The notes under the pieces: generated by a model
What the model was told of the DNA's origin: nothing
Seen by the model: the letters and a program-made list of their open reading frames with translations, nothing else
The model's database searches: none
From: a virus
Length of the DNA stretch: 64,000 nucleotides
Reading direction: 5' to 3' (one strand)
IMG/VR virus record: IMGVR_UViG_3300032307_000731
Coordinates: 1-64,000 of that record
Program-made: the position numbers and the translations under genes
Part shown: piece after piece, positions 1-58,296 of the stretch
How the letters are laid out: each line of letters starts with the position of its first letter
Numbering within the stretch: the first letter of the stretch is position 1

Positions 1-112
1 ACCTATCAAAGGTATTATGACACGTTACGCTAAGAAAATGGTTAACAACAGATTCTACGGACGTATCACAGTTGATGGTGTTAGAACATTCGACTTAAGA
101 GAATTGAGATAA
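1..112 (+). CDS. Major capsid protein, T4 gp23-like, C-terminal fragment (5'-truncated)
   Basis: Frame 2 reads PIKGIMTRYAKKMVNNRFYGRITVDGVRTFDLRELR*, matching the gp23-family C-terminal P..G..TRY motif; followed by a strong terminator. Not in the ORF track. Confidence 0.85.
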   Translation, partial: PIKGIMTRYAKKMVNNRFYGRITVDGVRTFDLRELR

Positions 113-132
113 TCAATATCTTATGATATACC

Positions 133-167
133 AAAAAGAGGACAAATATTTGTCCTCTTTTTTTTTT
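133..167 (+). terminator. Intrinsic terminator after capsid gene
   Basis: aaaaagaggacaa-atat-ttgtcctc followed by a T10 run. Confidence 0.9.
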
Positions 168-172
168 CTAAG

Positions 173-180
173 TATTTATA
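173..180 (+). promoter_or_regulatory. Candidate late promoter TATTTATA
   Basis: Lies between the terminator and ATG 195; the same motif precedes about 16 structural or cargo genes. Confidence 0.65.
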
Positions 181-194
181 GTAAAACAATAGAA

Positions 195-1301
195 ATGATT
201 AAACAAAATTGGAATATAAATGAGGATGAAAAAAATAGAATTTTAAATCTTCATGAGAGTGCAACTAAAAGATTGTACTTATCAGAACAAGAAAACGAAG
301 AAGTAATAGATGATTCTTATTATCAAATAGTTAATACTCCACTATATTTTAAAATTAACGAAGGTTACTTATATTGTTCAGTATGGGATGATAGAAAAAA
401 TAAAGAGGCGACTCCTTGGACTTATATAGGTGGTGATTTATATAATTTTAAAGTTAATTATAAATCAGGTGAGTTAATTTCCGATAAAGGTTGGGATTTA
501 AATTTTAAAATTACTGACGATAATTGGAATGAAATTGGTGCAACTTCGTTATCCTCACAAGGTGTTAGACCTATGCAATATAATAATGTTGAATATAAAC
601 TTATTGCTATGTCACCCCCTTTCTCTGACAAAAGACTTCCACATGCACTTGACAAAACAAAAGTTGGGGCTCCAACAGTTTATACTGCGAAAATAGTAGC
701 GATGGATATAACTTTATTAAAAGGTAGGTATGAAGAATCTGAAGATGATACAATATCACCAGTAATGTATGTTAAAAAAGGTAATAAAGGAATTTTAATA
801 CAATTGTTTCCTGGGGTTAGTGCTAAATATTTTTCAAATAAACCTACACCTGAAACACCTGAAGACAGACCTGAAGATATACCATTTGAATTAAATATTG
901 AAAGTCCATTTAAATTTAATGAAACTAATTTAACAGATGAGGCTGAACAAGAATTTAAAGATTTTATCAAATCAATTAAAACTAATTATTCTGATGCTAC
1001 AGGAGATGTAGAAGTAATATCATCAGCATCTATTGATGAAGACCCTGAAGGTAAACTTAAAACAGGTCAAAAAAGAAAAGATTATAATATGGATTTATCT
1101 AAAAAAAGAGCAGAAACAATTGCTTTACTTCTTAAAAATAGTTTACCGGGAATTAAATTAAATTTTATACCTAAAGGTATTGGAGAAACTGACCAATTTG
1201 CTAAGGGTAAAAAATGGCCTGACGTAACAGATGAAAATCAAACGGCACCTAATAGAAGATTAATAATTAAACTTCCTCAAATAATGAAAAAAGGGTCTTA
1301 A
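195..1301 (+). CDS. OmpA-like (peptidoglycan-binding) domain protein with putative capsid-targeting leader
   Basis: Start moved to 195 because ATG 123 lies upstream of the terminator and MIKQNWNINEDEKNRILNLHESAT matches the 1797 paralog. C-terminal PFKFNETNL...YNMDLSKKRA...KGIGE...NRRLII fits the OmpA_C pattern. No signal peptide. Confidence 0.75.
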   Translation: MIKQNWNINEDEKNRILNLHESATKRLYLSEQENEEVIDDSYYQIVNTPLYFKINEGYLYCSVWDDRKNKEATPWTYIGGDLYNFKVNYKSGELISDKGWDLNFKITDDNWNEIGATSLSSQGVRPMQYNNVEYKLIAMSPPFSDKRLPHALDKTKVGAPTVYTAKIVAMDITLLKGRYEESEDDTISPVMYVKKGNKGILIQLFPGVSAKYFSNKPTPETPEDRPEDIPFELNIESPFKFNETNLTDEAEQEFKDFIKSIKTNYSDATGDVEVISSASIDEDPEGKLKTGQKRKDYNMDLSKKRAETIALLLKNSLPGIKLNFIPKGIGETDQFAKGKKWPDVTDENQTAPNRRLIIKLPQIMKKGS

Positions 1302-1315
1302 AGACCCTTTTTTTT
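1287..1315. terminator. Bidirectional terminator
   Basis: aaaaaagggtct-taa-agaccctttttttt between convergent genes. Confidence 0.85.
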
Positions 1316-1316
1316 A

Positions 1317-1706
1317 TTAAAATACCTTAATATTAATAATTTTACTGTCAGTATAATTATCAAAACAATAAACCATAACATATTTGTTAGGTTTTGGTAT
1401 TTTTTTTACGTGAGGAATTGATTCCATAGTGACAACACCTGTTTTCTTATCTAATGCATAAACATATGTTGTGTAAGAGTAGTTATCATGTAATTCTTGA
1501 CTTAATTCAAAATCGCCAAAAAATTTAACATAAACTAAATTAGAGATATCTAATTTGTAGGTATCCATTAATTGTTTAACTGAAATGGAATCACGTTTCC
1601 ACAAATCATTTAATTCATAATAGTTTCCCGCTTTTACGGCTTGAATTTGACCAAACGATAAATTTGAAATAAAAATAAAAAGAATGATGGTAATTAAGTT
1701 TTTCAT
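1317..1706 (-). CDS. Small exported protein (SpI signal peptide, Gln at +1)
   Basis: MKNLITIILFIFISNLSFG|Q; has its own host-type promoter. Confidence 0.75.
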   Translation of the reverse strand: MKNLITIILFIFISNLSFGQIQAVKAGNYYELNDLWKRDSISVKQLMDTYKLDISNLVYVKFFGDFELSQELHDNYSYTTYVYALDKKTGVVTMESIPHVKKIPKPNKYVMVYCFDNYTDSKIINIKVF

Positions 1707-1731
1707 ATGTGTAGATGTTTTAATATTTGTA

Positions 1732-1762
1732 CAAATATAAATATTTTTTAATTACCTACAAA
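1732..1762 (-). promoter_or_regulatory. Bacteroidota primary-sigma promoter (-33 TTTG / -7 TAnnTTTG)
   Basis: Minus strand TTTG-19 nt-TATATTTG, 25 nt upstream of ATG 1706. Confidence 0.85.
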
Positions 1763-1796
1763 ATTTTTTGGGTATATTTATTATAAAATAGTTAAA

Positions 1797-2969
1797 ATGA
1801 TTAAACAAACATGGAATATAAATGAGGATGAAAAAAATAGGATATTAAATCTTCATGAATCCGCGACAAATAGACAATACTTAACTTTAGAACAGGCTGT
1901 ACAACCAATTGTAACTAAAACAACTACATCATCCGCTAATACGGTATTTCCAACACAAAACATTGGAAATCAATTTAAATTTGGTGAATATCAATCTGAT
2001 GTTGTTAAAAATTCTATTGAGGCTTTAAAACCTAAAATTGAAGAATTTATTAAAAAAAGTGGTGGTAACGAATTTATTGTAAATATTAGTGCGGGGGAAT
2101 CAAATGTGACAAATCCAAAAGGGTTTGAAACAAAAGGAAGTTTAGCTTTGGCAAGAGCCAATTCGGTTAAACAATATTTTCAAGAAATATTTCCTGAGTT
2201 AATTGAAAACGGTACTTTAATTATTGAAGGACCTAAGGATGTTAGCCAAGTTGTTTCAGGTAAAACACCATATGATAAAACTAAAGGTGACAGTAAAAAT
2301 CCTGAATTAATTAAATTATACAAACAGGAACAATTTGTTAATTTCGATATTAAAGGAACTGGAGAGGTTAGAGATTCGGATTCCCAAAATATTTGTCAAT
2401 GGCCCGGTAGAAAAATAAACGCAGGACAAGGTGAAGAAAGGTATGATTATGTGTTAACCAATGAAAAATTATTTGGTAAAGGTGTTATAACTTTTGATAC
2501 CGGAAGTATTCCTGATAGATTAATTGTTACTAATAAAAATAATGTAATAACTCAAGACACCGGATATGTTACAACACGTGCTCATGTATATAGAAATTTT
2601 AAATGGGTTCCATTATATGTTTACCAATTAACACTTATTAATTTAAAAAATAATGTATCGGTTAGTGGTAGTAAAATTATTAAAATAACTGCCAATAGTT
2701 ATGAAGAATTATTTAAACAACTTTTAATAGACCCAACAAAAAGTTTTGGTGGAGGAAATGATGAAGTTGGAGACCCATTAGACGACCTTAAACGTTTATG
2801 TGAACAAGGTGTTAAAGAATTTGTTGTTTATACGCAACAAACAAGTCCTGTGACTTTAAATTTTAATGGACCTTCTGGAGAATCAGGACTTAAAGTTTAT
2901 TCACCAATTGGAACATATAAGATTAAAACCGGATATAGTGTTACCGCAAACTGTAATAAAACTATTTAA
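1797..2969 (+). CDS. Divergent OmpA-like domain protein with the same leader and a C-terminal beta-rich domain
   Basis: MIKQTWNINEDEKNRILNLHESAT leader; QFKFGEY...VNISAGES...LALARANSVKQYF resembles OmpA_C; TATTTAT at 1775-1781. Confidence 0.65.
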   Translation: MIKQTWNINEDEKNRILNLHESATNRQYLTLEQAVQPIVTKTTTSSANTVFPTQNIGNQFKFGEYQSDVVKNSIEALKPKIEEFIKKSGGNEFIVNISAGESNVTNPKGFETKGSLALARANSVKQYFQEIFPELIENGTLIIEGPKDVSQVVSGKTPYDKTKGDSKNPELIKLYKQEQFVNFDIKGTGEVRDSDSQNICQWPGRKINAGQGEERYDYVLTNEKLFGKGVITFDTGSIPDRLIVTNKNNVITQDTGYVTTRAHVYRNFKWVPLYVYQLTLINLKNNVSVSGSKIIKITANSYEELFKQLLIDPTKSFGGGNDEVGDPLDDLKRLCEQGVKEFVVYTQQTSPVTLNFNGPSGESGLKVYSPIGTYKIKTGYSVTANCNKTI

Positions 2970-3238
2970 TAGTTGCCAAATATATTTCTTTTTGTTGGGT
3001 TTTTTTCTGTTTGAATAACTTTGTAGGTTAATTCATCGTTTTGATAATAGGCAATTGACGTGACTCTTAAATTAGGATAATCCTCAACAATAACTGAACC
3101 AACTTTTACTTTATAGACTTTAGATAATGAATCTAATAAGACATTGATATCCTTATCGATGTCTTTTGTTTTTGGTTTAGTTTGAGAAAATGTTAATGTT
3201 CCAACAAGTAATACTAAAGTAATAAATAATTTTTTCAT
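2966..3238 (-). CDS. Small exported protein (SpI signal peptide, Gln at +1)
   Basis: MKKLFITLVLLVGTLTFS|Q; stop overlaps the partner's stop; has its own host-type promoter. Confidence 0.75.
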   Translation of the reverse strand: MKKLFITLVLLVGTLTFSQTKPKTKDIDKDINVLLDSLSKVYKVKVGSVIVEDYPNLRVTSIAYYQNDELTYKVIQTEKNPTKRNIFGNY

Positions 3239-3255
3239 AATTTATAAATTTTCTA

Positions 3256-3286
3256 CAAATATAAATAGTTTTTACTACACTGCAAA
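3256..3286 (-). promoter_or_regulatory. Bacteroidota primary-sigma promoter
   Basis: Minus strand TTTG-19 nt-TATATTTG upstream of ATG 3238. Confidence 0.85.
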
Positions 3287-3410: not shown

Positions 3411-4193
3411 ATGAATTACACAACTGCGGTGAGCAAACCAAATGCTCACATCACAAAGAAAAAATCGCGTCTAAAAATCTACAACGGACACGTAGTCTTC
3501 ATGGAAGACCAAGACAATTTCGAATTCGAAATTCATAACCCAACAAGAAAAACAGTACTTTGTAAAATTAAATTGAACGGAGATTATATATCTCAAAGTG
3601 GTTTAGTTTTAAGACCGGGTGAAAGAATCTTTTTAGAGAGGTTTTTAGACACTAATAATAAATTTCAGTTCAGTACCTACTCTGTTAATAATACTTCCGA
3701 AAATCAATCGGCAATATCGTTAAACGGGGATGTTAGGGTAGAGTTCTATGATGAAAAGATTGTTCACACAAATAATCTTAATCTAAACCATTCCGGTACA
3801 TATCGTCCATGGGCGAATAATGTATTGTGTGGAAATTTAAATCACACAGGTGGGTATGTTCCAACAACATTTACAACTAATTCCTCAAGTTTGATTGGAG
3901 GTTCAAATGCATACTATACTAACACATCATCAGTTGATTTGAGTATACCTCGTACTCGTAGTAAAAAATCAATTGAAACAGGTAGAGTTGAGAAAGGTGA
4001 AAAATCTAACCAAAATTTTCAAAACTCATATGAGGAATTTAATTCTTATACTTCTCATCAGATATTGTATAAGATACAACCACTAACAACTAAAAATAAA
4101 ACATCTCAGGATATCAGACAATATTGTACTGAGTGTGGGACTAAAACAAAATCAAACTTTAAGTTTTGTCCGTCTTGTGGTAATAAATTATAA
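3411..4193 (+). CDS. Hypothetical protein with beta-sandwich-like N-terminus and C-terminal zinc ribbon
   Basis: C-terminal YCTECG...FCPSCG. Confidence 0.7.
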   Translation: MNYTTAVSKPNAHITKKKSRLKIYNGHVVFMEDQDNFEFEIHNPTRKTVLCKIKLNGDYISQSGLVLRPGERIFLERFLDTNNKFQFSTYSVNNTSENQSAISLNGDVRVEFYDEKIVHTNNLNLNHSGTYRPWANNVLCGNLNHTGGYVPTTFTTNSSSLIGGSNAYYTNTSSVDLSIPRTRSKKSIETGRVEKGEKSNQNFQNSYEEFNSYTSHQILYKIQPLTTKNKTSQDIRQYCTECGTKTKSNFKFCPSCGNKL

Positions 4194-5842: not shown

Positions 5843-8545
5843 ATGAAAACAAAATTTTTAGGAGCATTGCTATTAACATTAGCATTTTCGTTAGGAGCTT
5901 TCTCCCAAACAAAAGGAAAAGTAGTTGACCAATCTACAAATGAACCATTGGTCGGGGCTCATGTTCAGTTTAAAACTGAACATGCAACCACAGGTCTTGA
6001 AGGAGAATTCGAATTAAAGACCGCAAAAACTAATGATATTATTACAATATCTTTTTTAGGGTTCGGAAAGAAACAATATACTGTAAATGGTAATAACGTT
6101 TCAATTTCACTTATCCCTGAAGAAAATTCACTAGCAGAAGTTGTAGTTGTTGGTAAAGGGGTAATTGACGTTGCTCAAGGTCGTAAAACACCTATTGCAG
6201 TGTCAACCATCAAAATGGCTGAAATCCAATCTAAAATTGGTTCTAATGACATTACACAAACATTGGTTAACACACCATCAGTTTATGTTGCAGGTCAATC
6301 AGGTGGTTTTGGTGATTCAAGAATTTCGGTTCGTGGATTCCAACAAGATAACACAGCGTTCTTATTAAACGGACAACCAATTAATGGTATGGAAGATGGT
6401 AAGATGTATTGGTCGAATTGGTCAGGTATGGGAGATATCGCAAGTGCGATTCAAATCCAAAGAGGTTTAGGTTCTTCTAAACTAGCAATATCTTCAGTTG
6501 GAGGTACTGTGAACTTTATTACTAAGACTATCGATAAAAGAGAAGGTGGTTTTGTATCTACCGGTCTTGGTAATGACAATTATTTAAAAACAACAGCATC
6601 GTATAGTACAGGTCTAATGAAAAACGGATTGGCTGTTACTACAATGTTCTCACATTGGGAAGGTGATGGTTATAATGACGGGACTCAAGGACAAGGTCAA
6701 AACTATTTTATCTCATTAGGTTATAAATTAAATGACAAACATAATTTTAACTTCTTAATTACAGGTGCACCACAATGGCACAATCAAAACTTTAGTAAAA
6801 GAATTTCAGATTATTTAGGGTTCGGTAGAAAATACAACAATAACTATGGTTATTTAAACGGACAATTTTTGTCTGAAAGAGTAAACTTCTATCACAAACC
6901 GGTCGCGAATATTAACTGGGATTATAAGATTAGTGAAAAAACTAATTTATCTACAGTGTTATATGCATCTTGGGGTAGAGGTGGTGGAACCGGAAACTAT
7001 GGTGGTTCCGCTAATAAAAAATTCAAAACTGAATTAAACCCTTACACTAACCAAGTTCAAAACACATATATTGATTTTGACCAAATTTATGCAAACAATA
7101 GTAATCTTGCTAATGGTGCTGGAACATTTAATAATAGTTATTTAATTAGGTCATCAATGAATAACCATTCTTGGTATGGTGTTGTGTCTAACCTTAATAC
7201 AAAATTAAATGAAAACCTTAATTTAAATTTAGGGGTTGATTTAAGAACTTATGATGGTACACACTACAGACAAGTTAATAACTTTTTAGGTTTAACAAAC
7301 TTTACAGACTCAAGAAGATTAAGAGGAAGTAATCACCAAATGCAAGGTAGTAATGTTTTACAAACTGTAACAGAATCATTATCAACAAATCCTTGGGGCG
7401 CTTCATTTAACAATTTAAGTGAATCTCAAAGAATTGATTATGATTATAGTGAAACAATTAACTATGGTGGTATATTCGGACAATTAGAATATAGTAAAGA
7501 TGATTTCTCGGCATTCGTACAAGGGTCTTTATCAAATCAAACACACGTTAGATTTGATACGTATGATTACTTACCTGAATTTAAAGAATCTGAGAAAGTT
7601 GAAAATTTAGGATATAACCTTAAAGCTGGTGGTAGTTACTCAATTAATGACAAACACTCAGTCTATGTGAATACAGGGTTATATTCTCGTCAACCATACC
7701 ATGATAACATTTATTTGAACTTTACGAATGAAGTGAACCCATTAACATCAAATGAAAAAATATTTGGTTTAGAGGGTGGATATACATTCAAATCTAAATA
7801 TGTGAGTGGTAGTGTTAATGCTTACAGAACTTCTTGGAAAGATAGGGTTGTTTCGTCTTCAAGAGTGGTAACGTTAGCTACAGAGACAATCGGAACAACA
7901 GTGTTGACTCAAGGTGATTTAGTTTACAAATCTAATTTAGGTGTAGAACAAATTCATAATGGTATAGAATTAGATTTTATTGTAAGACCAATAAATAAAT
8001 TAGACATTAAAGGTTTTGCATCTATTGGTAATTGGGAATATAATGGTAGTTCAATAACTAGACAAACAGATGAAAATCAAAATTTATTAACAGAAACTTT
8101 AGTGGATGTTGATGGAGGTAAAGTTGGAGACGCGGCTCAAACTACTTGGGGATTAGGTGCTAAATATGAAGTATTAAGAGGTTTATCTATTGACGCTGAT
8201 TGGAGAACTTACGATGAGTTATATGCAAGCGTCGGTGCTGTTAAAGACAATTTATTATTACCAACGTATGATTTAGTTGACGCAGGTGTTTCTTATAAAT
8301 TATTATTAGGTAAAAACAAAAAAGATAATTTAACTTTTAGAGTAAATGTTAACAACGTATTTGATGAAGTTTATTTATCTGAATTATCAAGTAACATTAA
8401 AACAACTGACAATTTAAGTTCATCTAACCCATCATTAGGGACTTATCAATCAAATGGTAGAGTTTATAATGGAATTGCTGATGGTAACCAAGGGTTCTTC
8501 GGATTAGGTAGAACTTGGAACTTATCTTTACGTTACAATTTCTAA
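5843..8545 (+). CDS. TonB-dependent outer-membrane receptor, Bacteroidota type
   Basis: Signal peptide ...AFS|Q; N-terminal GKVVD...EPLVGA extension; plug motifs ISVRGF, LLNGQP, IQIQRG, GGTVNFIT; barrel ending NVNNVFD...GRTWNLSLRYNF with C-terminal Phe. Confidence 0.93.
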   Translation: MKTKFLGALLLTLAFSLGAFSQTKGKVVDQSTNEPLVGAHVQFKTEHATTGLEGEFELKTAKTNDIITISFLGFGKKQYTVNGNNVSISLIPEENSLAEVVVVGKGVIDVAQGRKTPIAVSTIKMAEIQSKIGSNDITQTLVNTPSVYVAGQSGGFGDSRISVRGFQQDNTAFLLNGQPINGMEDGKMYWSNWSGMGDIASAIQIQRGLGSSKLAISSVGGTVNFITKTIDKREGGFVSTGLGNDNYLKTTASYSTGLMKNGLAVTTMFSHWEGDGYNDGTQGQGQNYFISLGYKLNDKHNFNFLITGAPQWHNQNFSKRISDYLGFGRKYNNNYGYLNGQFLSERVNFYHKPVANINWDYKISEKTNLSTVLYASWGRGGGTGNYGGSANKKFKTELNPYTNQVQNTYIDFDQIYANNSNLANGAGTFNNSYLIRSSMNNHSWYGVVSNLNTKLNENLNLNLGVDLRTYDGTHYRQVNNFLGLTNFTDSRRLRGSNHQMQGSNVLQTVTESLSTNPWGASFNNLSESQRIDYDYSETINYGGIFGQLEYSKDDFSAFVQGSLSNQTHVRFDTYDYLPEFKESEKVENLGYNLKAGGSYSINDKHSVYVNTGLYSRQPYHDNIYLNFTNEVNPLTSNEKIFGLEGGYTFKSKYVSGSVNAYRTSWKDRVVSSSRVVTLATETIGTTVLTQGDLVYKSNLGVEQIHNGIELDFIVRPINKLDIKGFASIGNWEYNGSSITRQTDENQNLLTETLVDVDGGKVGDAAQTTWGLGAKYEVLRGLSIDADWRTYDELYASVGAVKDNLLLPTYDLVDAGVSYKLLLGKNKKDNLTFRVNVNNVFDEVYLSELSSNIKTTDNLSSSNPSLGTYQSNGRVYNGIADGNQGFFGLGRTWNLSLRYNF

Positions 8546-8597: not shown

Positions 8598-9281
8598 TTA
8601 ACAATATGGTGGTGAACACCTTTTTTTTCCGTCTAATCCGGGTTTAGTTCCTTTACACACTTGAACCGCATATCCATTCGCATATGCGCTAGGATACACA
8701 TCAAATTTTGATTTAGCTGCTGATTTACCTCTGGCACATAATTTAGTTCCGGTTTTCTTTTTACCCTCTGAAACTACAGGTTCACTTTGACGTTTTGCTT
8801 TATCAAGATAGTCATAAACTTTATCTCCGTACATTTGATAAATTTTCTTAATAAATTGAGCAGGACTCTTCCTAATATATCTAATAACATCATTAGGAAT
8901 ATACTGACCATATTTATCCCCAAATAAAGATTTTACTTGACGTTCTCTGTCACTTGTTGGTCTATCAGAGTCACTTGAATAATCTTGTTCATTAACATCT
9001 TCATAATCAATATATTCTTTTTTAGTTTCGTTCATTAAAAAATCGAATACTTGGTCCATATTATTTTTAGCTTCAGTTACGTGGTCATCTGCCCAATCAT
9101 GCCCCCCTTCATTAATAATTTCATCAATTTGTTGAGGGTCCATTTCTAACAATATTTCACATTGTCTTTTAATTTGTTGTAAATTACTAAAAAACATATA
9201 ATCTGCGACTTCTTGTTCTTTTAAAACTTTCTTTACGATTTTATTTAAATCGGATTCAGTTAATTTAATTATTTTTTTCAT
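8598..9281 (-). CDS. Putative internal head (poly)protein with basic C-terminal module
   Basis: MKKIIKLTESDLNKIVKKVLKE leader; internal LMNE, VNE and VVSE sites; C-terminal KLCARGK...YPSAYANGYAVQVCKG. Confidence 0.6.
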   Translation of the reverse strand: MKKIIKLTESDLNKIVKKVLKEQEVADYMFFSNLQQIKRQCEILLEMDPQQIDEIINEGGHDWADDHVTEAKNNMDQVFDFLMNETKKEYIDYEDVNEQDYSSDSDRPTSDRERQVKSLFGDKYGQYIPNDVIRYIRKSPAQFIKKIYQMYGDKVYDYLDKAKRQSEPVVSEGKKKTGTKLCARGKSAAKSKFDVYPSAYANGYAVQVCKGTKPGLDGKKRCSPPYC

Positions 9282-56457: not shown

Positions 56458-56970
56458 ATGCAAAAATTAGTTCCAATAACAAGACTAGGTAAATTCTTTG
56501 GTGCTGAAGATTATGCTTTGGATATTGGTATGGGTGAAGAATGGTTATTGGGAGATATGAACTTTACCGTAATTCTTTACCGTATTGATAGATATAAAAC
56601 CAAAACGGATGATGTTTATGGTGAGGTAACGGAAGATGGTATTCAATTTATGGCACCTGTTGAATTACAAGGATTAGTTCAAGTTATGGCACCAACCTCT
56701 AAGAATTATGGAAATTCACGAGTTGAATTACAAGAACCTGGTAATATGAAATTTTCATTGTATCAAAAAACTCTTGACGATATGGGTGTTGAGATATTCC
56801 AAGGGGATTATCTTGGGTATTATGAAACTGAAGATAGAGTTAGATATTATGTTGTAAGTGATGATGGATATGTTAGGTCAGATAATAAACATACATATGG
56901 AGGATACAAACCATTCTACAGAAGTGTTGTTGCAACTTATGTAAGTGAAAACGAATTTAGAGGAATATAA
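56458..56970 (+). CDS. Head closure/neck protein, gp14-like
   Basis: TDDVYGE and GDYL motifs; position between neck and tail genes; TATTTAT at 56414-56420. Confidence 0.55.
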   Translation: MQKLVPITRLGKFFGAEDYALDIGMGEEWLLGDMNFTVILYRIDRYKTKTDDVYGEVTEDGIQFMAPVELQGLVQVMAPTSKNYGNSRVELQEPGNMKFSLYQKTLDDMGVEIFQGDYLGYYETEDRVRYYVVSDDGYVRSDNKHTYGGYKPFYRSVVATYVSENEFRGI

Positions 56971-57359
56971 TGGAATACGTAATAAAAGAGAGTAAATTAT
57001 TTAATGCCATCTATCAGTATATTAATGGGTCTTATGATTTGACTAAAATTGATTTTTTTAATCCAACCACTTGGAATGATGATGAACATGATGACAAAGA
57101 AAATCCATATATTACGGAGTTTTTCAATACAGAATATGATGGTGATTATGATGAAAATGGGATGTTATTTATTTATATTGTAAAGGAATATTATTCAGAT
57201 GAACCTTCAAGACAATCTTTTATAAATCAAACACCAATTTTAATTGTTAATGATTATGGAAAATTAGAAACAATGTTTGGTGAATATTGGAAAGACCCTT
57301 TTAAAAAATGGTTTGAAAATAAATTTGAATTACCTGTTAAAACAATTGTTGCTGATTAA
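56970..57359 (+). CDS. Acidic hypothetical protein with VIKES leader, paralog 1
   Basis: MEYVIKESKLFNAIYQY...MFGEYWKDPFKKWFENKFELPVK. Confidence 0.7.
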   Translation: MEYVIKESKLFNAIYQYINGSYDLTKIDFFNPTTWNDDEHDDKENPYITEFFNTEYDGDYDENGMLFIYIVKEYYSDEPSRQSFINQTPILIVNDYGKLETMFGEYWKDPFKKWFENKFELPVKTIVAD

Positions 57360-57760
57360 TGGAATACGTAATAACAGAGAGTAGATTATTTAATGCTATC
57401 TATCAGTATCTTGATAGTTATCTAAACCCAAACGAAATTGATTGGGTTTATGGAGTTGGTACTGATGAAGATGGTTATGAGGATATAGATAAGGATGATG
57501 AAAACTTTTTAATGTTCTTTAAAGGAGAGTGGAATGGGGAAGATGATACTGACATAGTTTTTTATTATTTTGATGTGGATTATTATGAAAATAGTCCATC
57601 AACTAAATCGTTTAGAAATCAAGCACCTATTTTAGAAGTTATGGGTAAATATGGTGAACATTTAGACACTATGTTTGATGACCATTGGGTCGAACCTATG
57701 AAAAAATGGGTTCAAGATAATTTTAAATTACCGGTTAAATCGGTATCAACACATTATTAA
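57359..57760 (+). CDS. Acidic hypothetical protein with VITES leader, paralog 2
   Basis: MEYVITESRLFNAIYQY...MFDDHWVEPMKKWVQDNFKLPVK. Confidence 0.7.
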   Translation: MEYVITESRLFNAIYQYLDSYLNPNEIDWVYGVGTDEDGYEDIDKDDENFLMFFKGEWNGEDDTDIVFYYFDVDYYENSPSTKSFRNQAPILEVMGKYGEHLDTMFDDHWVEPMKKWVQDNFKLPVKSVSTHY

Positions 57761-57762
57761 TA

Positions 57763-58296
57763 ATGAAAGTATTAGTTAAAGAATCTCAATTAAGAAGAAT
57801 ATTTGAAATTGTCACAAAAGATAAAGTAATTTGTGACGAGTGTGGTTGGTCATGGGATTTAGCTGATGGTGGTGACGACCCTTATATTTGTCATAAATGT
57901 GGTCATGATAATGAAGAAAAAAAACATATAGGTGATAGAGTTATGGTGTATTATAATCTACATAAGCATACTTTTTCAGTTACTTATGATGGTAGGGTTA
58001 TAACTCATGCTGACTATGTTAAATTAACAGATGTTGAATTTAGGGTAAGACAAGGTGGTAGAGAAAAAGTTATTAAAGAAAAAAGAAAAAATGTTCATTC
58101 GTTTGTGATTGGTACTTTAGTGGATTATTGTAAATACCCATGTGAAAACCTACCGGATGAACCGAATAATAATATTGTTACATACAACCCTTACAAATAT
58201 AATACTTATGTAATGAAGGGTACTGAAGAGCCAGTATATCGAGCAAATGAGGTCGATATGATTAATTTAAAGAATAAATTATTTATAATAAGTTAA
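57763..58296 (+). CDS. Zinc-ribbon protein with LVKESQL leader
   Basis: CDECGWSW...CHKCG followed by a VYYNLHK...KNVHSFV...YNPY domain. Confidence 0.65.
   Translation: MKVLVKESQLRRIFEIVTKDKVICDECGWSWDLADGGDDPYICHKCGHDNEEKKHIGDRVMVYYNLHKHTFSVTYDGRVITHADYVKLTDVEFRVRQGGREKVIKEKRKNVHSFVIGTLVDYCKYPCENLPDEPNNNIVTYNPYKYNTYVMKGTEEPVYRANEVDMINLKNKLFIIS

What the first reader, a model, noticed from the sequence alone, without database searches (positions are those of the whole stretch)
195..3286. Tandem cassettes pairing a late OmpA-like cargo protein with a convergent early exported partner
Seen: the same unit occurs twice right after the capsid gene. Each has a + strand gene with TATTTAT, a 24-aa leader identical at 23 positions, an OmpA-like domain and an unrelated second domain (domain order is swapped between copies), with no signal peptide. 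It converges on a small - strand gene with an SpI/Gln signal peptide and a perfect TTTG-N19-TATATTTG host promoter. Established: OmpA_C domains bind peptidoglycan, and T4 internal proteins enter heads through N-terminal leaders cleaved after Glu. Inference: the OmpA-like proteins are packaged and ejected into the next host's periplasm, and the early exported partner neutralises the cognate protein. That would be a polymorphic effector/immunity or allele-specific superinfection-exclusion system.
Basis: partly seen in the sequence, partly recalled or inferred. Interest (0 to 1): 0.85.

Follow-up and report, generated by a model that had tools for sequence, protein, structure and literature searches.

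The report
Capsid-leader OmpA proteins with exported partners
In a large T4-like Flavobacterium phage, the two genes after the capsid gene encode peptidoglycan-binding proteins that have no export signal but carry a swappable N-terminal leader resembling a capsid-packaging tag, and each sits tail-to-tail with a small exported protein on a host-type promoter that changes in step with the cargo's variable domain, which suggests an undescribed injected-protein and neutraliser (exclusion) pair.

Summary
The window is the start of a 115-kb IMG/VR contig of a T4-like phage whose host is probably Flavobacterium.

- **Genes.** Cargo-1 (195..1301) and cargo-2 (1797..2969) follow a gp23-type capsid gene. 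They share a leader identical at 23 of 24 residues. Each has an OmpA-like fold and an unrelated second domain, in opposite order, and neither has a signal peptide.
- **Partners.** Each cargo converges on a small exported protein. Those two genes are the only ones of 93 in the contig with a well-placed Bacteroidetes TTTG-N19-TATATTTG promoter.
- **Leader.** It is a modular tag. Orthologues carry one of two leader types that share the core I-[ILM]-x-L-x-E followed by S, G or N. A profile of the leader finds 1,238 protein clusters, always matching at the N-terminus.
- **Head module.** Relatives encode a gp21-type prohead protease.
- **Pairing.** All 34 loci found by searching with a partner have the matching cargo tail-to-tail where the flank allows, in two genomic contexts.
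- **Co-variation.** Partner-1 tracks cargo-1's variable domain (r 0.91) and not the OmpA segment that lies between them on the DNA (r 0.39).

Packaging, cleavage, ejection and partner binding are all inferred. No toxin domain was found, so "effector/immunity" is not supported. A Spackle-like exclusion or neutralisation role fits better.

The parts
1..112 (+). 3' end of the gp23-type major capsid gene (the contig starts inside it)
   Evidence: Translation is identical to the C-terminus of the L008 610-aa protein, Pfam Gp23 E 4e-70
133..162 (+). Terminator-like hairpin plus T-run after the capsid gene
173..179 (+). TATTTAT phage (late-type) promoter motif, 22 nt before the cargo-1 ATG
   Evidence: The motif lies at -45..-15 of 20 of 93 genes, with a peak at -21..-25, and includes the large structural genes
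195..1301 (+). Cargo-1, 368 aa: leader (aa 1-31), disordered acidic linker, variable beta-rich N-domain (aa ~40-215), OmpA-like peptidoglycan-binding domain (aa 224-365)
1287..1313 (.). Hairpin flanked by an A-run and a T-run between cargo-1 and partner-1. I read it as a bidirectional terminator.
   Evidence: one search reports it on the minus strand only. The plus-strand T-run is read from the sequence.
1317..1706 (-). Partner-1, 129 aa, signal peptide ending ...SFG/Q (signal peptidase I type, Bacteroidetes Q-rule)
1732..1762 (-). Host sigma-A-type promoter TTTG-N19-TATATTTG of partner-1
1775..1781 (+). TATTTAT motif 22 nt before the cargo-2 ATG
1797..2969 (+). Cargo-2, 390 aa: leader (aa 1-33), linker, OmpA-like domain (aa 43-189), variable beta-sandwich C-domain (aa 195-390)
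2966..3238 (-). Partner-2, 90 aa, signal peptide ending ...TFS/Q; overlaps the cargo-2 stop by 4 nt
3256..3286 (-). Host sigma-A-type promoter TTTG-N19-TATATTTG of partner-2
8598..9281 (-). Third leader-bearing gene of the window (type-2 leader MKKIIKLTESDL...VLKEQ), 227 aa; 153 aa in relatives

Best explanation
Cargo-1 and cargo-2 are late-expressed proteins of a T4-like Flavobacterium phage that are carried in the virion.

Proposed mechanism:
- Their ~30-aa N-terminal leader has the core I-[ILM]-x-L-x-E followed by S, G or N, and a second x-E-Q site about 10 residues later. It works like the T4 capsid-targeting sequence: it docks the protein into the scaffolding core of the prohead and is then removed by the gp21-type prohead protease, which cuts after Glu.
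- The mature proteins are an OmpA-like peptidoglycan-binding domain plus a variable beta-rich domain. They leave the head with the DNA and act at the peptidoglycan layer of the next host during entry.
- Each cargo gene is paired tail-to-tail with a small gene on a host sigma-A promoter. Its product is exported to the periplasm immediately after infection.
- The partner recognises the variable domain of its own cargo type. It neutralises that protein and/or blocks entry of superinfecting phages of the same type, as T4 Spackle does with gp5.

Shown: the gene architecture, the folds, the modularity of the leader, the conserved Glu motif, the presence of the protease in relatives, the two classes of promoter motif, and the strict co-occurrence and co-variation of cargo and partner.

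Inferred: packaging, cleavage, ejection, binding of partner to cargo, and exclusion.
For: Head context:
- Relatives show the order gp21-type protease (Peptidase_S77, E 1.7e-21), scaffold-like gene, gp23 capsid gene, then the leader genes.

The leader is a module:
- Cargo-1 orthologues carry either MIKQxWNI..RILNLHES.. or MGKKIIKLTES... Cargo-2 orthologues carry a third N-terminal variant.
- 230 of 240 homologues have the core motif, with Glu at residue 21, 20 or 10 and a second x-E-Q site.
- The core occurs only 4 times in 39,408 residues of the contig's ORFs.
- The leader profile hits 1,238 clusters, always at the N-terminus. The 84 longest fall into 22 cargo clusters, including PG_binding_1 (E 3e-10) and a weak YkuD match.
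- Six synonymous against one non-synonymous change in the first 24 codons shows selection on the peptide.
- The leader is modelled as a low-confidence helix followed by a disordered linker.
- In T4 the targeting sequence is 10 residues, cleavage follows Glu, and diverse internal proteins share only that sequence (PMC9026906, PMC3012670).

Periplasmic logic:
- Both cargoes have the OmpA fold.
- Cargo-1 keeps an invariant D281 and R305 in the N-x-x-L-S-x-x-R-A motif. Assigning these as the ligand-binding residues is my own knowledge of OmpA_C.
- Neither has a signal peptide.

Partners:
- They are the only 2 of 93 genes with a placed host-type promoter. Six partner types in relatives have one too.
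- All partner-1 and partner-2 homologue loci (18 and 16) have the matching cargo tail-to-tail where the flank allows. This includes a different genomic context near a T4-type terminase, with the other leader type.
- Partner-1 identity tracks the variable N-domain (Pearson 0.91) and not the OmpA segment that lies between them on the DNA (0.39).
- Cassettes diverge to 38-71% identity while the flanking capsid and zinc-ribbon genes stay at 94-98%.
- Across 9 cargo types, all 3 homologous partner pairs are also homologous in the cargo variable region.
Against: - There is no direct evidence that the proteins are in virions or are cleaved.
- The leaders have no sequence similarity to the T4 targeting sequence.
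- (I/L)-x-E is a short motif, and the exact cleavage site is uncertain. Some leaders have M-H-E or T-L-E at the sites.
- Neither cargo has a recognisable catalytic or toxic domain, so what needs neutralising is unclear.
- Some leader-bearing genes have no partner: the L042 type, the third gene in L074/L075, and the arrays in L083 and L086.
- The L011-type partner lacks an exact promoter match.
- Co-variation in pair 2 does not discriminate, because the partner abuts the variable domain.
- The pairwise correlations are not phylogenetically independent.
- Cargo-2 has Glu and Arg rather than the canonical Asp and Arg, and is below the Pfam threshold.
Confidence: 0.45

Rival explanations
1. Receptor-binding protein plus an Llp/Cor-type exclusion protein. 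The cargo proteins are external virion adhesins whose conserved N-terminus anchors them to the particle and whose variable domain binds a host surface receptor. The small exported partner masks that same receptor from the periplasmic side, as T5 Llp does with FhuA. Cargo and partner would then co-vary because both target one receptor, not because they bind each other.
For: - A conserved N-terminal part with a variable beta-sandwich end is typical of receptor-binding proteins.
- T5 llp lies adjacent to and downstream of pb5 and is expressed early (PMC9586334).
- Several partner types are lipoproteins with an L-x-x-C lipobox.
Against: - An OmpA-like peptidoglycan-binding domain has no target outside the outer membrane, yet cargo-1 keeps its invariant Asp and Arg.
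- Other proteins with the same leader carry PG_binding_1 or a YkuD-like domain.
- The genes sit in the head module, not the tail-fibre module.
- The leader is followed by a disordered linker and carries a conserved Glu site.
- Orthologues swap leader types.
- The window's own two partners are not lipoproteins.
Confidence: 0.18
2. Independent morons in a hypervariable slot. The small exported genes are self-contained accessory genes, for example exclusion or host-modifying factors, that happen to sit in the plastic region after the capsid gene. They co-occur with the cargo types only through physical linkage and shared descent.
For: - They have their own promoter and, for partner-1, a terminator, as morons do.
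- The region is plainly a recombination hot spot.
- Some leader genes lack partners.
Against: - None of the 34 partner-seeded loci shows a partner without its cargo.
- The cargo-1/partner-1 pair moved together into an unrelated backbone.
- Partner-1 follows the distal variable domain rather than the adjacent OmpA segment, the opposite of what pure linkage predicts.
- 10 of the 11 cargo types found after the capsid gene have a partner.
Confidence: 0.2
3. The leader is not a cleaved capsid tag. Instead it is an N-terminal helix for oligomerisation, for docking to the tail or baseplate, or for some other assembly step. The proteins would then be tail-associated cell-wall-binding components, comparable in role to T4 gp5.
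For: - The type-2 leader also sits on a small conserved protein next to large genes that I took, without testing, to be baseplate-like.
- Cell-wall-acting proteins of myoviruses are usually tail-borne.
- The leader is predicted to be helical.
Against: - The position directly after the capsid gene.
- The conserved I/L-x-L-x-E core plus a second x-E-Q site, in lineages with a gp21-type protease.
- A 10-residue type-2 leader ending in Glu parallels the T4 sequence.
- Very diverse cargo share only the leader.
Confidence: 0.12
4. Lysis accessory. These are late peptidoglycan-binding proteins and small envelope proteins that act together at lysis, in a spanin-like or holin-associated way.
For: Peptidoglycan-binding domains and small lipoproteins both occur in lysis cassettes.
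Against: - The cargo has no signal peptide or transmembrane segment.
- Partner and cargo use different promoter classes and opposite strands.
- No muralytic domain was found.
- The location is in the head module.
Confidence: 0.05

Closest known systems
T4 internal proteins (IPI, IPII, IPIII, Alt) with the capsid-targeting sequence, processed by the gp21 prohead protease
   Same: - A T4-type head module: gp21-type protease and gp23 capsid protein.
- A short N-terminal leader ending in hydrophobic-x-Glu. The type-2 leader is 10 residues, like the T4 sequence.
- Very diverse cargo share only the leader.
- The loci are hypervariable between related phages (PMC3012670, PMC9026906).
   Different: - No sequence similarity to the T4 leader.
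- The type-1 leader is about 30 residues with two candidate sites.
- The cargo domains bind peptidoglycan and so point to the periplasm, whereas T4 internal proteins act in the cytoplasm.
- The genes sit directly after the capsid gene.
- Each OmpA-type cargo has a cognate exported partner, which T4 internal proteins lack.
T4 Spackle (gp61.3) and the gp5 tail lysozyme
   Same: A small early periplasmic protein with a signal peptide that binds a virion-borne cell-wall-acting protein of incoming phages and gives superinfection exclusion (PMC7677548, PMC7650644). This is the closest functional analogue for the partner.
   Different: - Spackle and gene 5 are not adjacent.
- gp5 is an enzyme on the tail tip, not a head-packaged binding protein.
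- No allelic cassette system is described for Spackle and gp5, to my knowledge.
- No homology to Spackle was tested or seen here.
T5 pb5 (receptor-binding protein) and the Llp lipoprotein; Cor of T1-like phages
   Same: A late virion gene with a small, early-expressed, exported exclusion gene adjacent and downstream (PMC9586334). Several partner types in relatives are lipoproteins.
   Different: - Llp acts on the host receptor, not on the phage protein.
- pb5 has no peptidoglycan-binding domain or cleavable leader.
- The window's two partners are signal-peptidase-I substrates, not lipoproteins.
Polymorphic toxin and immunity cassettes (CDI, Rhs, T6SS effectors)
   Same: A conserved N-terminal delivery part, a variable distal domain, and a small cognate gene immediately next to it. 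The cassette is exchanged as a unit.
   Different: - No toxin domain was detected.
- The partner is convergent and on a separate promoter.
- Delivery would be by a virion.
- In cargo-1 the variable domain is N-proximal, not C-terminal.
Ejection proteins of phiKZ-like and SPN3US-like giant phages
   Same: Many head-internal proteins are processed after Glu by a gp21-related protease, and their propeptides contain redundant sites (PMC9026906, PMC7411985).
   Different: These belong to a different phage lineage, with no shared leader sequence. To my knowledge, no peptidoglycan-binding cargo with paired exported partners is described there.

Membership tests
OmpA_C-like peptidoglycan-binding domain (PF00691) | Score at or above the Pfam gathering threshold | tested here: met
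   Cargo-1 scores 28.1 bits against a cut-off of 27.2. Cargo-2 scores only 14 bits, below threshold.
OmpA_C-like peptidoglycan-binding domain (PF00691) | OmpA-like alpha/beta fold | tested here: met
   Cargo-1: VIA Z 12.9 (8z5n, rmsd 2.4, 112 aligned) and Z 11.3 (3td3); Foldseek 4rha E 2.8e-6. Cargo-2: Z 9.3 (1r1m, 4b62); Foldseek 3td5 E 6.8e-5.
OmpA_C-like peptidoglycan-binding domain (PF00691) | Conserved Asp and Arg that hold the diaminopimelate moiety (N-x-x-L-S-x-x-R-A region) | tested here: inconclusive
   Cargo-1 has D281 and R305 invariant in 53 homologues, within ...YNMDLSKKRA.... Cargo-2 has E101 and R120 invariant. The residue correspondence was read from the motif, not from a structural superposition. 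Binding was not assayed.
T4-type capsid-targeted internal proteins | The phage has the T4-type head assembly genes (gp21-type protease, gp23 capsid protein) | tested here: met
   Peptidase_S77 E 1.7e-21 and Gp23 E 4e-70 in relative L008, directly upstream and syntenic. In the window itself only the capsid gene's end is present, because the contig starts there.
T4-type capsid-targeted internal proteins | N-terminal propeptide ending in (L/I)-x-Glu that is removed by the prohead protease | not testable with these tools
   The motif is present and highly conserved (230 of 240). Cleavage itself needs proteomics.
T4-type capsid-targeted internal proteins | Unrelated cargo share only the leader | tested here: met
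   1,238 clusters have an N-terminal leader match. 22 cargo clusters are found among the 84 long hits. Orthologues swap leader types.
T4-type capsid-targeted internal proteins | Sequence homology to the T4 leader or to T4 internal proteins | tested here: not met
   No PHROG or Pfam hit to internal proteins. tblastn of cargo-1 against 50,697 phage records found nothing. By eye the leaders do not resemble the T4 sequence.
T4-type capsid-targeted internal proteins | Protein present inside mature heads and ejected | not testable with these tools
   Needs virion proteomics of a cultured relative.
Spackle-like periplasmic exclusion protein | Small, early-expressed, Sec-exported protein | tested here: inconclusive
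   The signal peptides were read from the sequence. The host-type promoter is unique to these two genes. Timing and export were not measured.
Spackle-like periplasmic exclusion protein | Binds a virion-borne cell-wall-acting protein of the incoming phage | not testable with these tools
   Only co-occurrence and co-variation were shown.
Polymorphic toxin/immunity system | The variable domain is a toxin or enzyme | tested here: inconclusive
   No Pfam family other than OmpA reached its threshold in either cargo. The cargo-2 C-domain gives only generic beta-sandwich matches at Z 7-9. The cargo-1 N-domain could not be searched on its own.
T5 Llp / Cor-type exclusion lipoprotein | Lipoprotein signal (lipobox Cys) | tested here: not met
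   Partner-1 and partner-2 have no lipobox Cys and end in ...G/Q and ...S/Q. Other partner types in relatives do have one.

The most novel reading that the evidence does not exclude
T4-like Flavobacterium phages run a polymorphic, virion-delivered periplasmic system. Capsid-targeted peptidoglycan-binding proteins are ejected into the cell envelope to support entry, and each allele is recognised by a co-inherited, early-secreted partner that blocks that allele. This would give an allele-specific superinfection-exclusion (kin-discrimination) code that diversifies by cassette exchange. It would also show that T4-type capsid targeting can deliver proteins to the periplasm, through a leader family present on more than a thousand protein clusters.
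Probability: 0.33. Interest if true: 0.85.

Novelty: new variant of a known kind. Interest (0 to 1): 0.72.

Why it matters
If this reading is right, it extends the T4 capsid-targeting principle to an uncultured, environmentally abundant clade of Flavobacterium phages, with a new and easily searchable leader family of more than 1,200 clusters. That gives a sequence handle for predicting head-packaged, ejected proteins in metagenomes.

The cargo domains point to the peptidoglycan layer as the site of action. Little is known about how large myoviruses cross the Bacteroidota envelope.

The strict pairing with fast-evolving exported partners on host promoters would be a second, modular example of Spackle-type exclusion. 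It would be a natural system for studying allele-specific phage-phage competition.

The leader could also serve as a packaging tag for engineering phages of Bacteroidota.

Tried and rejected
- **Nucleotide and protein searches of the 50,697 phage records.** The region and cargo-1 gave nothing. The nearest cultured capsid relatives are only about 44% identical over the C-terminal part: Flavobacterium phage immuto, Microcystis phage Mel-JY01 and Rhodothermus phage RM378. The annotated immuto neighbourhood shows no obvious equivalent; its proteins were not scanned for the leader.
- **The look-up of encoding contigs was closed.** Contexts therefore came only from IMG/VR loci. The metagenome contig scan was not used.
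- **Partner-1.** Pfam, PHROGs and the ESM Atlas gave nothing useful. Its 70 homologue clusters all come from metagenomes and are unnamed or 'hypothetical'.
- **Structure.** The partners, the cargo-1 N-domain alone and cargo-partner complexes could therefore not be modelled. Foldseek matches of cargo-2 to ThiL/PurM-type enzymes (rmsd above 20) were rejected as spurious whole-chain alignments.
- **Missed partners.** My first partner screen missed two partners because of an overlap cut-off. I corrected this by reading the ORFs: L018 has a 116-aa partner and L025 a 94-aa partner.
- **Codon comparison.** The window-versus-L008 comparison has too few changes for dN/dS, and the zinc-ribbon row of that table is out of register and was ignored.
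- **Type-2 leader scan.** An exact DNA-pattern scan returned 7 stretches, at least 4 of them on contigs already known to carry cargo-1 orthologues.
- **RNA-level explanation.** I rejected the idea that the shared 5' region is conserved at the RNA level, because the leader codons differ synonymously.

Full report
**Naming**

Cargo-1 is 195..1301 (+) and partner-1 is 1317..1706 (-). Cargo-2 is 1797..2969 (+) and partner-2 is 2966..3238 (-). Note that alignment id A1 holds the cargo-2 family and A2 holds the cargo-1 family.

**What the DNA is**

- The window is bases 1-64000 of a 115,163-bp linear IMG/VR virus contig. CheckV puts it at 38% complete, and its GC content is 31.7%.
- Window 2-112 encodes a peptide identical to the C-terminus of a 610-aa protein in relative L008. 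That protein is a gp23-type major capsid protein (Pfam Gp23, E 4e-70).
- In 38 related IMG/VR loci the order is conserved: a 146-aa gene, a gp21-type prohead protease (Peptidase_S77, E 1.7e-21; PHROG head maturation protease, E 2e-41), a 69-aa gene, a scaffold-sized 526-aa gene, the capsid gene, and then the leader genes.
- The nearest cultured capsid relatives are distant, at about 44% identity over the C-terminal 40%. They are Flavobacterium phage immuto, Microcystis phage Mel-JY01 and Rhodothermus phage RM378.
- A phage-borne TonB-dependent receptor gene (5843..8545) is 76-78% identical to genes of Flavobacterium MAGs. Together with the Bacteroidetes-type promoters and the Gln that follows the signal peptides (PMC5837995), this supports a Flavobacterium host.

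**Check of the observation**

All elements are present as described.
- The two leaders differ at 1 of 24 residues. Six of those codons differ synonymously, so the peptide itself is under selection and the similarity is not a recent copy.
- Only these two type-1 leaders and one type-2 leader (8598..9281, -) occur in the 115 kb.
- TATTTAT lies 22 nt before both cargo ATGs. Across the contig it lies within -45..-15 of 20 of 93 genes, with a peak at -21..-25, and this includes genes of 1,676, 1,783 and 1,766 aa. There are only 80 copies on both strands of the whole contig. It therefore behaves as a phage promoter motif of late type.
- The perfect TTTG-N19-TATATTTG occurs twice in 64 kb against 0.08 expected.
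- With the relaxed consensus TTTG-N17-21-TAnnTTTG, the partners are the only 2 of 93 genes with a correctly placed site. The other nine matches have no plausible gene start just downstream.
- A terminator-like hairpin follows the capsid gene (133-162), and another hairpin lies between cargo-1 and partner-1 (1287-1313). Cargo-1 and partner-1 are thus separate, convergent transcription units.

**The cargo proteins**

- AlphaFold models have mean pLDDT 80 and 79. Each shows a low-confidence N-terminal helix (residues 10-32), a disordered linker and two folded domains.
- Cargo-1 has a beta-rich N-domain (about 40-215) followed by an OmpA-like domain at 224-365. Best matches are VIA Z 12.9 to 8z5n, Z 11.3 to A. 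baumannii OmpA 3td3, and Foldseek E 2.8e-6.
- Cargo-2 has an OmpA-like domain at 43-189 (Z 9.3; Foldseek E 7e-5). It is followed by a beta-sandwich at 195-390 that matches only generic jelly-roll, GOLD or PPC-type domains at Z 7-9.
- Cargo-1 keeps an invariant Asp281 and Arg305 in the OmpA-type motif. Cargo-2 has Glu101 and Arg120.
- Neither protein has a signal peptide, and no enzymatic or toxin domain was found.

**The leader is a module**

- Cargo-1 has more than 300 homologues. The same cargo carries either the type-1 leader (MIKQxWNI..E.RILNLHESATK..YLSEQ) or an unrelated-looking type-2 leader (MGKKIIKLTESELY..VKRVLQEQ).
- Cargo-2 homologues carry type 1 or a third variant (MNNLFEIS..RILNLHEGATK).
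- The types share a core, I-[ILM]-x-L-x-E followed by S, G or N, in 230 of 240 proteins. The Glu is at residue 21, 20 or 10. A second x-E-Q lies at residue 31/32 or 23.
- The core is rare elsewhere in the contig, at 4 occurrences in 39,408 residues.
- A profile of the 34-aa leader finds 1,238 clusters (at 50% identity) among 1.84 billion representatives, 165 of them at E <= 1e-10. In the 150 hits listed the match is at or within about 30 residues of the N-terminus.
- The 84 longest hits fall into 22 cargo clusters. Ten representatives include a PG_binding_1 domain (E 3e-10) and a weak YkuD match (E 0.0035).
- Following a lead from earlier notes, I confirmed three further small genes in the window (56970, 57359, 57763) that begin with M-x-x-V-I/L-K/T-E-S-x-L. 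Five of 93 N-termini match a related pattern, against 0.5% of internal stretches.
- T4 precedents: the capsid-targeting sequence is the first 10 residues, gp21 and its relatives cut after Glu, propeptides can hold redundant sites, and T-even internal proteins are highly diverse with only the targeting sequence conserved (PMC9026906, PMC3012670).
- Taken together, the leader is most simply read as a capsid-targeting propeptide. This is inference, because no proteomic data exist.

**The partners**

- Searching with partner-1 returned 18 loci, of which 12 carried distinct cargo-partner sequences (55-99% identity). Partner-2 returned 16 loci, about 7 distinct (61-100%).
- Wherever enough flank exists, the matching cargo lies tail-to-tail. 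Cargo-1 homologues there are 48-97% identical and cargo-2 homologues 49-98%.
- The cargo-1/partner-1 pair also occurs in a different backbone, near a T4-type terminase and a ClpB-like gene. There it has the type-2 leader.
- The second slot varies independently of the first. L050 and L052 keep cargo-1 and partner-1, but carry a 507-aa or 373-aa cargo with a different partner.
- Of 11 cargo types found after the capsid gene, 10 have a convergent exported partner of their own type. These are signal-peptidase-I type or lipoprotein, 70-129 aa. The L042 type has lost the partner together with the neighbouring zinc-ribbon gene.
- Six partner types in relatives carry host-type promoters.
- Flanking genes are 94-98% identical in the close group. 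In the same loci the cargo-1 N-domain is 38-40% identical, partner-1 65-67%, the cargo-2 C-domain 44-71% and partner-2 66-71%.
- The most telling result concerns gene order. On the DNA the OmpA-coding segment lies between the variable N-domain and partner-1. Even so, partner-1 identity follows the N-domain (Pearson 0.91, Spearman 0.80; 66 pairs from 12 loci) and not the OmpA segment (0.39, 0.37). For example, L058 has OmpA at 97%, the N-domain at 61% and the partner at 60%. Pure linkage predicts the opposite. These pairs are not phylogenetically independent, so no P-value is claimed.
- Across 9 cargo types, all three homologous partner pairs are also homologous in the cargo variable region. 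Twelve of 36 type pairs are homologous there, and the hypergeometric chance of this overlap is about 0.03.
- Leader genes outside this slot (L074/L075 third gene, L083, L086) form same-strand arrays without partners. The partner therefore belongs to the OmpA-type cargo, not to the leader.

**Interpretation**

- The best-supported model is a virion-packaged, protease-processed, ejected peptidoglycan-binding protein, whose variable domain is recognised by a cognate early periplasmic partner.
- The nearest functional precedent is T4 Spackle, an early periplasmic protein that binds the gp5 lysozyme of incoming phages (PMC7677548).
- The nearest architectural precedent is T5 pb5 with its adjacent downstream exclusion lipoprotein Llp (PMC9586334).
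- The 'toxin/immunity' wording is not supported, because no toxic domain was found.
- Rivals are set out in the Rival explanations section: a receptor-binding protein with a receptor-masking partner, linked morons, a non-cleaved docking helix, and a lysis accessory.

**Limits**

- No multimer folding was available.
- The partners and the cargo-1 N-domain were not modelled.
- All context comes from uncultured contigs.

Noticed in passing
window 5843-8545 (+): A phage-encoded TonB-dependent receptor: a signal peptide by eye, then CarbopepD_reg_2 and Plug domains, 900 aa. It is present here and in L014 but absent from the close relative L008. The best bacterial matches are Flavobacterium MAGs at 76-78% identity. 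It looks like a host-derived auxiliary gene and gives a clue to the host.
   Followed up: partly
window 8598-9281 (-): A small conserved protein with the type-2 leader (MKKIIKLTESDL...VLKEQ), next to large genes that I took, without testing, to be baseplate-like. It is 227 aa here but 152-159 aa in relatives. The extra C-terminal part matches phrog_27331 (E 1.9e-14).
   Followed up: partly
window 56970-58296 (+): Three consecutive small genes (129, 133 and 177 aa) begin MEYVIKESKL, MEYVITESRL and MKVLVKESQL. These are short N-terminal hydrophobic-x-E-S leaders that resemble the type-2 leader and could mark further capsid cargo.
   Followed up: partly
whole contig; e.g. window 173-179, 1775-1781: TATTTAT lies about 22 nt before the start codon of many genes, including the largest structural genes (20 of 93 genes; only 80 copies on both strands). 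It is a candidate late-promoter element of this phage clade, comparable in placement to the T4 late promoter TATAAATA.
   Followed up: partly
window 123-194: An upstream in-frame ATG at 123 gives a 392-aa ORF that some gene callers use, as in several database homologues. It runs through the capsid gene's terminator hairpin and precedes the TATTTAT motif, so the true start is 195.
   Followed up: yes
window 3411-4193 (+): A conserved 260-aa protein with a C-terminal zinc ribbon follows the cassettes in nearly all relatives. It forms the right-hand conserved border of the variable slot, and it is deleted together with the partner in the L042-type loci.
   Followed up: partly
L083:5415-8418, L086:293-2056, L074:2423-3927: Other phage contigs carry same-strand tandem arrays of two or three leader-bearing genes, mixing type-1 and type-2 leaders plus a further variant (MKKEILSEE...VISEQ). 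None has an exported partner.
   Followed up: partly
L011:6384-8426 (-): A ClpB-like two-AAA-domain ATPase (AAA_2, E 8e-70) is encoded in the second phage backbone that carries the cargo-1/partner-1 cassette, a few kb from a T4-type large terminase.
   Followed up: no
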